DNA of 64,000 nt. Origin: Candidatus Zixiibacteriota bacterium. Lineage in GTDB: Bacteria > Zixibacteria > MSB-5A5 > UBA10806 > 4484-95. Of the stretch, positions 42,001 through 48,000 are shown piece after piece (the stretch's first letter is position 1; every line of letters starts with the position of its first letter). The DNA lies in NCBI GenBank assembly GCA_029932605.1, contig JAOZPT010000001.1:1-64000 (forward strand), written 5' to 3'. Made by a program: the position numbers.

Positions 42001-45000
42001 CTCAGAGGACAGGCCTACAAGGCCGGTTATAAAGATGCGTTTGCATACCCCGGTTTTGTGCCGGCATATATCAGGCCACTTTTCTGCGAGGGTAGAGGCC
42101 CATTTCGCTGGGCGGCTCTATCGGGCGACCCTGAGGATATCGCGGTAACCGATGAAATGGTGCTGAAGATGTTTTCTTATAATGAGCCGTTGGTGCGGTG
42201 GATCGAGATGGCACAAAAGAAAGTTCATTTCCAGGGTCTGCCAGCTCGTATCTGCTGGCTGGGTTATGGTGAGCGCGATAAGATGGGGCTTGAGATAAAC
42301 CGCTATGTAAGAGAGGGCAAGCTTAAAGCTCCGATTGTCATCGGCCGCGACCATTTAGATAGCGGTTCGGTTGCCTCGCCATATCGCGAGACCGAGGGCA
42401 TGAAAGACGGCTCTGACTGTATAGCCGACTGGCCGGTTTTAAACGCCCTGTTGAACACAGCCAGCGGAGCCTCATGGGTGAGTTTCCATCACGGCGGCGG
42501 TGTTGGCATAGGTAATTCACTTCATGCCGGACAGGTATTAGTCTGTGACGGCACACCGGAGATGGATATCCGTATCGAGCGGGTGCTAACCAACGACCCG
42601 AGTATCGGAATAGCTCGCCATGTCGACGCCGGCTATGATGAGGCAGTCAAAGTGGCAGATGAAAAGAATGTGAAGATACCGATGAGGATGTATAGGGAGT
42701 TTGTTGAATCGGATAATAACTTAGTGTAAGGGTATACTGATTATACACTTTAATGTGGGAATCCAATAACATGGATAAATAAAAGAGCAGTAACTTGACA
42801 AAATCAACCACCGCTAAGGCATTGATACCAATCGAGATTATAGAACGGAAGATATTCCTCCTCCGCAGGCAAAAAGTTATGATTGATAAAGACTTGGCTG
42901 AACTTTATGGTGTAACAACCGGAAACCTTAACAAAGCAGTAAGCAGAAACATTGATCGATTCCCTGAGGACTTTATGTTTCAATTAACAAAGGTTGAGTT
43001 TGAAAACTTGAAATTCCATTTTGGAATATCAAGTTGGGGTGGTACTCGAAGGTTACCCAGAGCATTTACTGAGCAAGGTGTAGCTATGCTCTCCAGTGTG
43101 CTAAGAAGTAAACGGGCTGTTCAGGTTAACATTCAAATAATGAGGACTTTTGTTAAACTCCGGGAATTAATATCATCACATACGCAATTGGCTAAGAAGG
43201 TACAAGCTTTGGAAAAGAGATACAACTCCCAGTTCAAAGTTGTGTTTGATGCTATTCACAAATTGATTGAATCGCCCAAAAAGGATAAAAGACGTATTGG
43301 CTTTTACAGAAAGTAGGTCAAAACCCCTGCGGTTTTGACATATATTATGAGATAATAGCCAATAGCACAAGGCTCGTGGCCTACGGCTCTACTAATAGCT
43401 ATTACAAAATATGGCATGTATTTTTTATTCTTTTAACTTTTCCTCAAATTCCGTAAAATAATTGTTTATAACCCTTAAATTAAATTTCGAAGGTACGGTA
43501 GGACAGACTTTTAGTCTGTCCGGTCAGACAGGAATGTCTGACCTACCAGCAATCTTGAATTTGGAGTTGTTGAGGTTTTCGTTTCACTCAGACACCGACC
43601 TACGATTACCCTCAACGATTCTGGACAGCATTTTTTGCTGACCCTACATGAATCTACACTTTTATATGATAATAGCCAATAGCACAAGGCTCGTGGCCTA
43701 CGGCTCTACTAATAGCTATTACAAAATATGGCATGTATTTTTTATTCTTTTAACTTTTCCTCAAATTCCGTAAAATAATTGTTTATAACCCTTAAATTAA
43801 ATTTCGAAGGTACGGTAGGACAGACTTTTAGTCTGTCCGGTCAGACAGGAATGTCTGACCTACCAGCAATCTTGAATTTGGAGTTGTTGAGGTTTTCGTT
43901 TCACTCAGACACCGACCTACGATTACCCTCAACGATTCTGGACAGCATTTTTTGCTGACCCTACATAAATCTACACTTTTATATGATAATAGTCAAGAGC
44001 ACAAGGCTCGTGGCCTACTTATTGTTCCACTTTTACTGGTTTATAAATTGCGCCGACGATCAGCCCAAGAATGATCATTTCTATCATTCCGAATAATATC
44101 CATAGCCAGAGCAATGCTCCAGGAATAGGAAATATTGGCCAGCACATAAAGGAGCCAACCACTATATAGAACAGGCCTATATAGATACCATAGCGGAATC
44201 CTTCAATGACCCCTTTGCCTTTAACACCGTAAGTATATATCCATACGAATAACAAGGTGAAAAAGAAGGCGCCGATATAATAAGCCCACATTTTCGAGTT
44301 CATATCCGCTTCGCTGCGAAGTAGCGTGCCGGTGAGGGGTTTGTAAATTTCGCCAAGTATCAACACATGTATGATTAAATCCATCACGAACAAAGCTACA
44401 AAGCCTACGATTACGGCATTGATGAATCTTTTCCAATTCATTTTTCTCTCCTAAATGTTTGATTTTTTCTGTCTGATTGTGGGAGTTTTTGCAGGGATTT
44501 TCAAGCGAAATTTTCGATATTTTCAGAGGATATTATACCGCCATGAATTAATATGCGGATTTAGATTTGTTCGTTTATAAAAGGTATTTCCTTGGGTCAG
44601 CAATAGCGCCCTCAAGGGCAGAGGCAGCCGCGGTAGCTGGAGAAGATAGATAAACTTCCGGATTCTTTGAGTTGGTTTGCCGGATTAAATCACAGCTGTT
44701 GGTAGTAAGGATTCTTTCATCTGCAGCAAGCATATCCTTGTGAGCTCCCGCACATGAGCCGCAACCCGGACTTAACATGACACACCCCGACCCAACTAAA
44801 GAACGGATATAACCTTTATCGATTGCGGCAAGATATGTTTTGCGGGAAGCGGGTACGATTATCATCCGGGTGTCGCGGTGGATACGTCTTCCCCGGAGTA
44901 TGGAGACAACCATTTCCAGGTCATCTAAACGACCACTTGAACATCCGCATAATACAATCTGGTCTATTTTCTTACCCGCTACATCTTCCACCGGTTTAAC

Positions 45001-48000
45001 ACAATGCTTTTTATTCAGACATGCGACCTGAGGTGTGAGATATGAGACATCTATTTCGATTTCGTTTTCGTATTTGGCATTGATGTCAGGAGCAATTGGA
45101 GAGAATCTTTCTTTGGTAATTTTTTTTAAGTATCTTTGAGATACATCATCAAAGGGAATTATGGCTGATTTTGCCCCGATTTCCAAGGAGGAACTGGTTA
45201 AAATAAGTCTTTGTGGCACCGTCATTGTGGAGACCGCATCACCATAGAATTCCAGCGCCTTATAATTTATATCCTCAAAATGAAGGTCTCGGGATAATTT
45301 AAGGATGATATCTTTTGCGAATACACCCCGGGTGGGTAAACCGTTTATAACCACCTTGATAGTTTTGGGTACTTTCAGCCAGATTCTGCCCGAGGCCCAT
45401 ACTACCGCCATATCCAGTGGGCTTATACAGGTTGAGAAAGCACCAATACTTCCGTGGGATGTGGCTTGGTTATCGGTTGCCACAATCAGGCGGCTGGGAA
45501 GTATTAATCCCTCTTCGAGGGTAATCTGGTATGGTATTCCCCAACCGATATCGTAAAATTTTTCTATTCTTTGTTTTTTAACAAATTTGCGGATTCTTTT
45601 GTGGACATCGGCAATCTTCCCAAATTCATTTTGTGTCCAGTCATTCAAAATTATAGTGATTTTTGAATTGTCCCACACTTTGGGAAAGCCTGTCAGTTTA
45701 AACTGTTTTATAATTTGTTCGGTATCGTCAACTGATACAGCTAGGTCGGGTCGGACGCTTATGACCTGACCCTCTTCTACTGATTTCAGCCCGGACTTTT
45801 TTGCCAGTAATTTTTTGATAAATGTTTCTCTTCGGGAATCTCTGCTTTTCCTGTAGGTTCCTCTTAAGTCCAGTTCAAGTTGTTCCATTTTCAGTTGAAC
45901 CGGTTTTTTCTTGATGCCGTATTTGATGCGCCATTGGCGGAAGCCGGGACCGGATATCCCCAGCTCTGCTCCGGCTAATCTATCATCACCATAGCGTTCC
46001 CAGAGTTCTATTATTTTCTCATGTGAATATTTTGAGAAGCTGTATTGTCCGATATTTTTCTTCGAGCGCCAGTATGCGACCAAACGGCTGGGCACTCCAT
46101 AGACCTCTGCAATTTTCTTGTCGGTTCGGTATTTCTTTTGAAGCTCTAAGAGCTCTTTTTTCTTGGGTATTTTCACTTTTTTTGGTGTTTATCTTTACTG
46201 GAGTTTTTTTAGATGTTTTTTTAAAGAGTCGTATATATCCAGTAAAGCAAGCGATTGGACTTTTGTTAACCCCACAACTGGCATAAAATTGGTGTCTCCC
46301 TGGAAACGTGGTACAACATGTATATGCAGATGGTCAGTGATGCTTGAACCGGCCACCTCGCCGATATTGATACCGATATTTAAGCCGTCAGCCGGCATGG
46401 CGATATTGAGAAGTTTTGAGCTGAGAATCATGAGTCTAAACATCTCTGTATATTCAGCTTTAGTCAATTTATCAAGGTTGGATTTATGTTTATTGGGAGC
46501 TATCATTAAATGCCCACTGTTATAAGGGTAGCGGTTTAAAATGATAAAAGCATTTTTACCCCTGTATAAGATCAGATTTTGCCGGTCTCTTTTTTGTTTT
46601 AACCGACTGCAAAATATACATTCTTTTTCTTTTGAGCCAATAATATATTCAGCACGCCAGGGTGCCCAGAGCTCTTCCATGTTATACAAGTTAAATAGAA
46701 TGATTTTAAAATCAAGAATTTTTTGAGAATTATTATTTCTTGTGAGAAGAATTGACAAAAAGTTGACATCCGATTTATTATAATAATATATTAATGTCAG
46801 ATGACTACTCCCCGATAGAATACAGAAGAACTTGACATGGTAAAAGACAATGGTTATTTTGTTTTTTTATTGAAGGATTAAATTATGACTGAGATTGCGA
46901 AAGCTTATAACCCCAAACTTGTAGAGGATGCCATTTATCAAAGATGGCTTAAAATGGGCATATTTCATGCCCGCCTTGATTCTGATAAGAAACCTTATTC
47001 AATTGTCATCCCCCCACCCAATGTAACCGATGTTTTACATTTGGGACATGCCTTAAACAATACTCTTCAGGATATAATGATACGCTGGAAGAGGATGCAG
47101 GGTTACGAGGTAGAGTGGCTTCCAGGTGTTGACCATGCCGGTATCGCCACCCAGGTTGTAGTGGAAAAAACCCTTGTGCGCGAGGGGCGTTCACGGCATG
47201 ATATTGGCCGTGAGAAGTTTGTTCGGAGAATCTGGAAATGGAAAGAGGAAAAGTTTAACATCATCATAAGACAGCTCCAGAAAATAGGTTGTAGTTGTGA
47301 TTGGGACCGTATTCGTTTTACTATGGATAAGCAACTTTCACGAGCCGTTATCGAGGTGTTTTGCAGGCTTTATGAAAAAGGCTTGATATATCGCGGCGAG
47401 AGGATAGTTAATTGGTGTCCCGAATGCCTAACCACTCTTTCTGACGATGAGGTTGAAAGGGAGGAGGTTGATTCGTTCCTCTGGTACATTAGATATAAAC
47501 TCAAAGGTTCAGATGAGTTTTTAACTGTTGCTACCACACGTCCGGAAACAATGCTTGGCGATACCGCAATTGCGGTTAACCCTGATGATGGGCGTTTTAA
47601 AAGATATATCGGAAAATCAGCAATATTGCCATTTCTCGACCGTGAATTGCCAATAATAGCTGATGATTACGTTGATCCGGAGTTTGGCACAGGCGTACTG
47701 AAGATTACACCTGCTCATGATGCTAATGATTTTGAGGTTGGTATACGCCATAACCTGGATAGAATTAATATCTTAAATAAAAATGGCACACTCAATGAAA
47801 ATGCTGGGAAATTCGCAGGGCTGGACAGGTATGAAGCCCGTAAGAAGATAGTTGAGGAGCTTAAACAGAAAGGTCATCTGGAAAAGATTGAGAACTATTC
47901 TTTGATATCTGGTTCTTGTTATCGTTGTCATTCAGTTGTTGAACCCTATCTTTCCAAGCAATGGTTTGTGAAGATGAAGCCATTGGTTAAGCCGGCCATA

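What a model noticed while it worked through the whole genome (the two positions that open the first line are those of the whole stretch)
44575..46176. Tandem-HTH pseudo-aconitase: phylum-wide DNA-binding protein built on a dead LeuC/aconitase large subunit
g01150, annotated as isopropylmalate dehydratase large subunit, is a fusion of two tandem helix-turn-helix units to a LeuC-type domain that has lost its substrate-binding motifs and has no small-subunit neighbour. It is near-universal in Zixibacteria and is best read as a regulator, possibly sensing an Fe-S cluster or ligand.
Evidence so far: The N-terminal 140 residues are found, in 485-578-aa frames, in 22 of 23 genomes from 12 families; all 115 homologs carry PF00330 and named ones are Zixibacteria. 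24 of 33 invariant columns in a 27-sequence alignment lie in residues 1-100. Against the active paralog g00586, QDGTG, LDHS, ADSHT and NRNFRGR are replaced here and are variable over 113 sequences; the three cluster Cys are kept here and in 80, 63 and 83 of 113. Model pLDDT 85 shows two three-helix units at 6-39 and 52-86. No paper found.
(Added by a program. Inside this text positions count along the whole contig: contig position 1 is position 1 of the stretch shown here. "Call 12" and the like, gene names such as g00115 and contig names such as C1 are that model's own, and its searches are not shown. The text may have been shortened before it was handed on; [...] marks where a part breaks off. 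The agent that wrote the report below was given it as the finding of a first reader that could run no searches.)

Follow-up and report, generated by a model that had tools for sequence, protein, structure and literature searches.

The report
Clamp-docking DNA-binder built on aconitase
Nearly every Zixibacteria genome carries one gene joining a double DNA-binding head, a short peptide that matches the docking signal for the DNA replication clamp, and an aconitase-type enzyme body that still looks active in some lineages and dead in most, which points to an undescribed link between DNA binding, replication and metabolism.

Summary
The ORF (44575-46176, minus strand, 533 aa) is real: two helix-turn-helix (HTH) units, then a LeuC/HacA-type domain that here keeps 3 of 12 substrate/catalytic residues and all three cluster cysteines. 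The N-domain is found, almost always once, in 194 of 198 good-quality genomes of the phylum.

(1) The family is not uniformly dead: 25 of 121 full-length orthologues (5 families) are fully intact, 18 with an intact LeuD next door. (2) Fe-S sensing is not general: 19 of 96 degenerate copies keep all three cysteines, 42 keep none. (3) A feature was missed: residues 99-104 (QLELDL) match the hexameric beta-clamp-binding motif, in a low-confidence linker. Q99 is kept in 121 of 121; chance matches in two other genes are kept in 1 and 4 of 30. A model docks it in the canonical pocket of this genome's DnaN (0.68 vs 0.00 controls; possibly from memory of solved complexes).

Best reading: a core, clamp-docking DNA-binding factor whose enzyme body became a scaffold, encoded directly behind a HIT nucleotide enzyme. 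Binding, targets and output are untested.

The parts
44575..46176 (-). Whole gene (533 aa): tandem HTH + clamp-binding-type motif + LeuC/HacA-type domain
46060..46161 (-). HTH unit 1 (residues 6-39)
   Evidence: helices in models; orthologues match HTH_23 in 44 of 52 at E<=0.5, best 4.2e-7; best structural match Z 6.1, rmsd 2.3, 44 aligned, to a phage repressor HTH
45919..46023 (-). HTH unit 2 (residues 52-86)
   Evidence: Fis/sigma54-activator HTH matches at Z 4.3-4.7
45865..45882 (-). Hexameric beta-clamp-binding-type motif QLELDL (residues 99-104), preceded by invariant P92 and L95
   Evidence: conservation; controls; docking model; motif definition
45826..45864 (-). Variable linker (residues 105-117)
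   Evidence: pLDDT <50 over 101-113; mean family-weighted column identity 0.24 in degenerate copies
44578..45825 (-). LeuC/HacA-type aconitase-family domain (residues 118-533); substrate motifs lost here, Cys412/472/475 kept
46195..46680 (-). HIT-family nucleotide enzyme gene, 18 bp upstream; upstream of the gene in 119 of 122 genomes
   Evidence: PF01230 E 3.3e-14; NF052622 ATP adenylyltransferase 131 bits, below its cut-off of 290
46681..46725 (-). Probable sigma-70-type promoter region of the HIT + gene operon
   Evidence: family-level: 82 of 117 upstream regions hold a match of 9 or more of 12 vs 27.7 +/- 4.7 shuffled; this site itself was not listed by the scan

Best explanation
A chromosomal client of the beta sliding clamp. 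The QLELxL peptide docks in the clamp's pocket (inferred from conservation and a model). The two HTH units grip double-stranded DNA (inferred from fold and charge). The aconitase-family body, ancestrally an active Fe-S dehydratase large subunit with its own LeuD and still intact in five families, is kept elsewhere as a folded scaffold, probably for oligomerisation or for holding a partner such as the co-encoded HIT enzyme (inferred). The protein would thus be delivered to DNA through clamps, i.e. to freshly replicated DNA, and act as a replication-coupled regulator. The output is not resolved: clamp-dependent transcription control as in phage MuC, or replication/cell-cycle control in the role Hda, YabA or SeqA play elsewhere; I weight these about equally. 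Shown: architecture, distribution, motif conservation, intact versus degenerate states. Inferred: clamp binding, DNA binding, scaffold role, output.
For: Motif: Q99 121/121; position 2 L/M/I; position 4 L96/F24/I1; position 6 L70/F47/I3/M1; next 13 residues only 0.24 conserved. 94 of 122 fit the strict published hexamer Q-phi-x-[LM]-x-[FL], 117 with F allowed at 4 (definition in PMC11139829, which also reports LQLELDF as the top phage-display hexamer; QLELDF occurs in 7 of the 122). Controls: chance matches kept in 1 of 30 (KorB-like) and 4 of 30 (KdsA-like); MutS kept my pattern in 16 of 30, 28 counting other QxxLF forms. Present in all 30 family hits whose match reaches it, and in 3 of the 120 other hits, mostly HTH-repeat proteins. 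Unstructured in the monomer model. Complex model with this genome's DnaN: 0.68, best of 3 controls 0.00; mark reached by 116 of 157 solved and 2 of 215 mismatched pairs; runs agree in >=71% of contacts; partner pLDDT >=76; Q99/L100/L102/L104 touch DnaN 170-175, 241-246, 320, 344-346, 363-367, mostly invariant columns. Two 106-aa proteins (P0138, P0265) end one residue after QLEMPL. Scaffold role: degenerate C-domain dN/dS 0.08-0.18 in 11 of 12 pairs, 0.40 in one, conserving fold residues only.
Against: No experiment. Clamp-peptide complexes are solved many times over, so the model pass may reflect likeness, and my own alignments were used. The loose pattern occurs in 133 of 2043 ORFs of this genome, so the case rests on conservation. 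F at position 4 (24 of 121) is outside the published consensus. The lone N-domain model folds 94-105 as a low-confidence helix. Structural HTH matches are middling (Z <=6.1; Foldseek E >=0.18). No operator or origin motif was found. Family f13 (2 genomes, one 95% complete) and three other good genomes gave no match, so it is probably dispensable in some lineages. The standalone 106-aa form could not be located in DNA.
Confidence: 0.6

Rival explanations
1. An ordinary transcription factor or nucleoid protein; the conserved QLELxL segment binds something other than the clamp (its own dimer, RNA polymerase, the HIT protein).
For: P92, L95 and K/R96 upstream are as conserved as the motif, so the functional segment is longer than a minimal clamp motif; HIT linkage in 119 of 122; a complex model cannot exclude other partners.
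Against: The substitution pattern (fixed Q, free positions 3 and 5, L/F at 4 and 6) is the published clamp pattern; in P0138 the P92/L95 segment has changed while QLEMPL stays, and in P0144 its spacing shifts by two residues; the segment scored 0.00 with an unrelated protein.
Confidence: 0.2
2. One reading: a regulator whose dead aconitase domain senses an Fe-S cluster or a ligand.
For: All three Cys are kept here and in 19 of 96 degenerate copies (f1, f2, f7, f10); the domain is under purifying selection; aconitases switch to nucleic-acid binding by cluster state (PMC7463775).
Against: 42 of 96 keep no Cys, including all sampled members of f6, f8, f9, f11, f12, f18, f19, f20; Cys state varies inside single families; no family-specific pocket residues. 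It could hold only in some lineages.
Confidence: 0.1
3. A bifunctional enzyme-regulator (trigger enzyme) in which the catalytic or substrate-bound state controls the DNA-binding head, also in the degenerate copies through a changed substrate.
For: 25 of 121 copies keep 12 of 12 residues and 3 Cys, 18 with intact LeuD; dN/dS 0.04-0.11. This is probably true of the ancestor and of f4, f14-f17.
Against: In 96 copies the site residues differ between and within families (0-9 of 12 kept), and the adjacent LeuD is degenerate (12) or not found in the stretch read (67); this genome has only two PF00694 genes, both tied to other enzymes.
Confidence: 0.07
4. The annotation is right: isopropylmalate dehydratase large subunit of leucine synthesis.
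For: Passes the broad NF001614 cut-off (399.7 vs 385).
Against: Below the LeuC equivalog cut-off (352.7 vs 610.65); 3 of 12 site residues; IlvD, needed upstream, was found in 3 of 285 genomes while ringing in 14 of 14 controls.
Confidence: 0.01

Closest known systems
Phage Mu MuC / Mor family (bioRxiv 10.1101/2025.01.04.631326; passages and Discussion read)
   Same: DNA-binding transcription factor with a clamp-binding motif that is needed for function; motif conserved across the family.
   Different: Phage-encoded, pentameric motif at the N-terminus, no enzyme domain. This protein is a chromosomal core gene with two HTH units, an internal hexamer and an aconitase body; no sequence relationship was found (Mor appears only at Foldseek E 2.7).
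Archaeal-type LeuC/HacA large subunits (M. jannaschii MJ0499 4kp1/4nqy, MJ1003 4kp2)
   Same: Fold and sequence of residues 118-533 (E 3e-82; TMt 0.93); intact orthologues pass NF001614, TIGR01343 and TIGR02086.
   Different: They have no HTH head or clamp motif; substrate motifs are lost in this copy and in 96 of 121 orthologues.
Nucleic-acid-binding aconitases: yeast Aco1 and IRP1 (PMC7463775, passages), IRP2 (recalled)
   Same: Aconitase fold with a nucleic-acid role that does not need catalysis.
   Different: Those bind with the aconitase body itself; here a separate HTH pair is fused and the cluster ligands are mostly lost.
Clamp-associated replication regulators Hda and YabA (PMC5295017 and PMC11139829, passages)
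   Same: Non-polymerase clamp clients; Hda uses a motif in a disordered segment.
   Different: Hda is an AAA+ protein and YabA a Zn-binding tetramer; neither is described there with an HTH pair or enzyme body; no DnaA contact was tested here.
Enzyme-regulator fusions such as PutA, BirA, NadR (recalled, no call)
   Same: DNA-binding domain fused to a metabolic enzyme, as in the five intact families.
   Different: Different folds; I recall no clamp motif in them.

Membership tests
Beta-clamp clients with hexameric motif | Q-phi-x-[LM]-x-[FL] | tested here: met
   QLELDL here; 94 of 122 strict, 117 with F at position 4, 121 with my broadest pattern
Beta-clamp clients with hexameric motif | Motif conserved in orthologues and in a flexible segment | tested here: met
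Beta-clamp clients with hexameric motif | Q and position 2 in subsite II, positions 4 and 6 in subsite I | tested here: inconclusive
   The model shows this, but may reproduce solved complexes; pocket numbering mapped by me
Beta-clamp clients with hexameric motif | Measured, motif-dependent binding | not testable with these tools
   needs experiment
HTH DNA-binding proteins | Three-helix HTH fold and profile match | tested here: met
   models; HTH_23 44 of 52 orthologues at E<=0.5, best 4.2e-7; multi-repeat relatives pass the curated cut-off; this copy alone E 0.14
HTH DNA-binding proteins | Sequence-specific DNA site | tested here: inconclusive
   no operator found
Active LeuC/HacA large subunit | Aconitase-family fold | tested here: met
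Active LeuC/HacA large subunit | Three cluster cysteines | tested here: met
   met here and in 25 intact + 19 of 96 degenerate copies
Active LeuC/HacA large subunit | Substrate/catalytic motifs (HD/QD, DH, H, DSH, NxxxE, NRNFxGR) | tested here: not met
   3 of 12 here; 12 of 12 in 25 orthologues of f4, f14-f17
Active LeuC/HacA large subunit | Cognate intact small subunit | tested here: not met
   none for this copy; present beside 18 of 25 intact copies
Isopropylmalate isomerase (leucine synthesis) | Equivalog score and pathway context | tested here: not met
Fe-S-sensing aconitase regulators (IRP type) | Conserved cluster ligands across the family | tested here: not met
   42 of 96 degenerate copies have none
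Mor/MuC activators | Mor-family domain with N-terminal pentamer | tested here: not met
   no Mor family among Pfam hits listed for 52 orthologues; the motif is internal and hexameric

The most novel reading that the evidence does not exclude
Zixibacteria have their own replication or cell-cycle regulator, in the role of Hda, YabA or SeqA, made by fusing an aconitase-family enzyme to a clamp-docking double HTH. In five families a live Fe-S dehydratase still rides the clamp, and the HIT partner adds a dinucleotide (Ap4A-type) input, so metabolism is read at the replication fork; elsewhere the enzyme was lost several times while the clamp and DNA functions stayed.
Probability: 0.3. Interest if true: 0.9.

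Novelty: categorically new. Interest (0 to 1): 0.78.

Why it matters
If the clamp docking holds, this is a cell's own, phylum-wide DNA-binding client of the replication clamp; the HTH-type precedent I found is a phage activator family. It would be a first lead on how this uncultured phylum ties replication to gene control. Independently of the clamp, the family is a natural series from intact enzyme through partial to complete loss of the active site, with the small subunit decaying alongside, which makes pseudoenzyme birth testable with matched proteins. It also corrects a misannotation: these genomes lack the upstream leucine pathway gene. Each part has a known counterpart; the combination has none in my searches, and every family-membership test fails on a defining feature or stays untested.

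Tried and rejected
Operator search: EM motif finding upstream of HIT (68 of 117 regions, at most 6 per family) gave only A/T-rich promoter-like signal; k-mer sharing upstream of 30 dnaN genes was dominated by dnaA coding sequence, a weak test. Fe-S sensor as the general role: rejected. Family-specific ligand pocket: none seen. The motif as a remnant of a third HTH repeat: rejected by inspection (alternating hydrophobic pattern, frequent Pro at 103 and 105) and by its rarity in HTH-repeat proteins. Intact copies as recent replacements by a paralogue: not favoured, since intact and degenerate C-domains group together (FastTree 0.966) apart from stand-alone paralogues; long branches make that tree rough and no AU test was run. 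DNA-repair operon: SbcD/SbcC-like genes lie upstream in 12 of 41 loci, but HIT has its own promoter-like element, so I give this little weight. Standalone 106-aa form: not found in metagenome, viral or phylum searches. ESM Atlas: only HTH_23 clusters at 0.80-0.82, below its threshold. PDB sequence search with the N-domain profile: nothing meaningful. Hda: one TIGR00362 match (DnaA) in this genome; that query could miss Hda. Literature searches listed no paper on this family; the library omits most subscription papers and no supplements were read. Earlier-finding searches by place and words were empty.
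Full report
Observation. The ORF is at 44575-46176 on the minus strand, 533 aa. Residues 118-533 are an archaeal-type LeuC/HacA large subunit: PF00330 E 3.9e-54, NF001614 399.7 bits over a cut-off of 385 but LeuC equivalog TIGR02083 352.7 under 610.65, M. jannaschii MJ0499 E 3e-82, Foldseek TMt 0.93. The AlphaFold model (pLDDT 88.1) has two three-helix units at 6-39 and 52-85 and pLDDT under 50 at 101-113. This copy keeps 3 of 12 substrate/catalytic residues and all three Cys (the 12 positions follow the paralogue's motifs and my recall of aconitase chemistry). 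The genome has two other aconitase-family genes and two PF00694 genes, both attached to those; a search with the degenerate LeuD relatives found nothing more. The N-domain is present in 265 of 285 genomes of the phylum and 194 of 198 high-quality ones, almost always once. A scan of 185,579 species genomes gave 215 relatives; of the 80 shown, 51 are titled Zixibacteria/GN15, and 27 of the other 29 share exact sequence with same-phylum loci. I did not see the other 135. Family f13 and three other good genomes gave no match even with a profile.

The head. This copy alone matches HTH_23 only at E 0.14, but 44 of 52 orthologues match it at E<=0.5 (best 4.2e-7) and 46 match HTH_Tnp_1. A profile search of 1.84 billion representatives returns the family and then proteins made of several similar repeats; three of these pass HTH_23's curated cut-off by a wide margin. 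Structural matches are HTH proteins at middling Z (best 6.1, rmsd 2.3, 44 aligned); Foldseek gives E>=0.18. Residues 1-98 carry 24 K/R against 11 D/E. HTH fold is well supported; DNA binding is inferred.

The family is not uniformly dead. I read the gene from 122 of the 265 genomes (19 families; chosen for listed coordinates and family spread, not at random). Of 121 full-length copies, 25 (all sampled members of f4, f14, f15, f16, f17) keep 12 of 12 residues and three Cys; 96 (14 families) keep 0-9. An intact LeuD follows 18 of the 25; one more is cut by the locus end, one lies one gene further, three loci end too soon, and in two none was seen. Behind the 96 degenerate copies are 12 degenerate LeuD genes, 2 intact ones of another type, 67 with none in the stretch read and 15 with too little sequence (this genome was counted there; the window shows none). 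Intact and degenerate C-domains form one group (FastTree 0.966), intact ones on short branches. On a tree of N-domain plus HIT (63 genomes, at most 5 per family, f14 absent) the intact label needs two changes, forced by well-supported branches. If activity cannot be regained, that implies three or more losses; the tree is unrooted and some branches are under 95. All three Cys survive in 19 of 96 degenerate copies and none in 42, so cluster sensing cannot be the shared function. The degenerate domain is still under purifying selection (dN/dS 0.08-0.18 in 11 of 12 within-family pairs, 0.40 in one; N-domain 0-0.09) and conserves only fold residues shared with paralogues. The intact enzyme's substrate is unknown; leucine synthesis is unlikely because IlvD was found in 3 of 285 genomes.

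The missed motif. Residues 99-104 read QLELDL. Over 121 genomes: Q 121; L115/M4/I2; E105; L96/F24/I1; free; L70/F47/I3/M1; the following 13 residues drop to 0.24 identity. PMC11139829 (passages read) defines the hexameric clamp motif as Q-phi-x-[L/M]-x-[F/L], names QLxLxF as a best binder and LQLELDF as the top phage-display hexamer. 94 of 122 fit strictly and 117 with F at position 4. Such strings are common by chance (loose pattern in 133 of 2043 ORFs, QL[EDS]Lx[LF] in 3), so I tested conservation: two chance matches in other genes are kept in 1 and 4 of 30 homologues, while MutS, a known client (recalled), keeps my pattern in 16 of 30, or 28 counting other QxxLF forms. All 30 family representatives whose match reaches the motif have it, against 3 of the other 120 hits, a set that includes truncated family fragments. 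Two 106-aa proteins from different contigs stop one residue after QLEMPL; I could not see their DNA. A complex model of residues 48-107 with this genome's DnaN scored 0.68, best of three controls 0.00; the mark was reached by 116 of 157 solved and 2 of 215 mismatched pairs; runs agree in at least 71% of contacts; partner pLDDT at least 76. Q99 and L100 touch 173, 320, 344, 365-367; L102 and L104 touch 170-175, 241, 246, 346, 363, which match the two published subsites by my mapping. Many like complexes are solved, so this shows likeness, not binding.

Context. A HIT gene lies directly upstream in 119 of 122 genomes (the other three loci end too soon), overlapping by four bases in 16 of 41 loci and 18 bp away here. 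Its nearest NCBIfam model is an ATP adenylyltransferase, below cut-off. A sigma-70-like element precedes HIT in 82 of 117 regions against 27.7 shuffled. No operator emerged there or near dnaN. Four earlier scan notes on other genomes also report HTH, dead LeuC and HIT coupling; in the lines shown none mentions intact copies or the motif.

Mechanism. Most likely (0.6) the protein docks on the clamp by the hexamer, binds DNA by the HTH pair, and uses the aconitase body as a scaffold, acting on newly replicated DNA. Whether the output is transcription, as for MuC (bioRxiv 10.1101/2025.01.04.631326, passages and Discussion read), or replication control, as for Hda and YabA (PMC5295017, passages), is open. 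Rivals: an ordinary regulator whose motif binds another partner (0.2); an Fe-S or ligand sensor (0.1, possible only in some lineages); a trigger enzyme throughout (0.07; likely for the ancestor and five families); a leucine enzyme (0.01).

Novelty. Each part has a precedent: clamp-binding activators (MuC/Mor), nucleic-acid-binding aconitases (PMC7463775, passages), enzyme-regulator fusions (recalled). I found no family with this combination and no paper on it in ten searches (search listings only, apart from the four papers named); subscription papers and supplements were not covered. Interest 0.78: the architecture, core distribution and enzyme-to-pseudoenzyme series are shown; the clamp link is well motivated, cheap to test and unproven.

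Noticed in passing
G000:C28:15395-17686 (L002): The 'active paralog' and its LeuD sit among succinyl-CoA synthetase, 2-oxoacid oxidoreductase, malate and isocitrate dehydrogenase genes (names by inspection); the same type lies beside isocitrate dehydrogenase in G237, G206, G028. It is probably a two-subunit TCA aconitase, not LeuC. It and the neighbouring SucD both end in long Lys-rich tails.
   Followed up: partly
P0138, P0265: 106-aa proteins with only the two HTH units and QLEMPL at the C-terminus, from two contigs (58 kb and 1 kb); a possible natural minimal form. Not located.
   Followed up: partly
P0136, P0143, P0146, P0148, P0149, P0150: Unnamed proteins built of several tandem HTH repeats related to the head; no clamp-type motif.
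   Followed up: partly
G000:C87:15703-19339 (L173, L033): dnaA and dnaN are divergent with a 1.2-kb spacer in this genome, whereas a co-directional ORF ends about 200-450 bp before dnaN in the relatives read.
   Followed up: no
L034-L039, L042, L053, L153, L154, L160, L161: SbcD/Mre11-like and SbcC/Rad50-like genes lie just upstream of HIT in 12 of 41 loci, across f1, f2, f3, f8, f18.
   Followed up: partly
window 46681-46725 and relatives: The best promoter-like -10 box ends 6-9 bases before the HIT start codon in 36 of 108 regions, suggesting leaderless mRNA.
   Followed up: partly
phylum-wide: IlvD (PF00920) found in 3 of 285 genomes, so branched-chain amino-acid synthesis seems largely missing.
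   Followed up: partly
L044 (G266): A stand-alone intact LeuC/HacA and a LeuD lie downstream of the degenerate gene and belong to a neighbouring clade: possibly a split of enzyme and regulator functions.
   Followed up: partly
L237, L238 (G203, G204; family f13): The HIT gene is present in a different context and the fusion gene was not found.
   Followed up: partly
G000:C3:15893-26276: CRISPR-associated-looking genes (by inspection) lie just upstream of the 660-aa fused aconitase-family gene and a PrpD-like gene.
   Followed up: no
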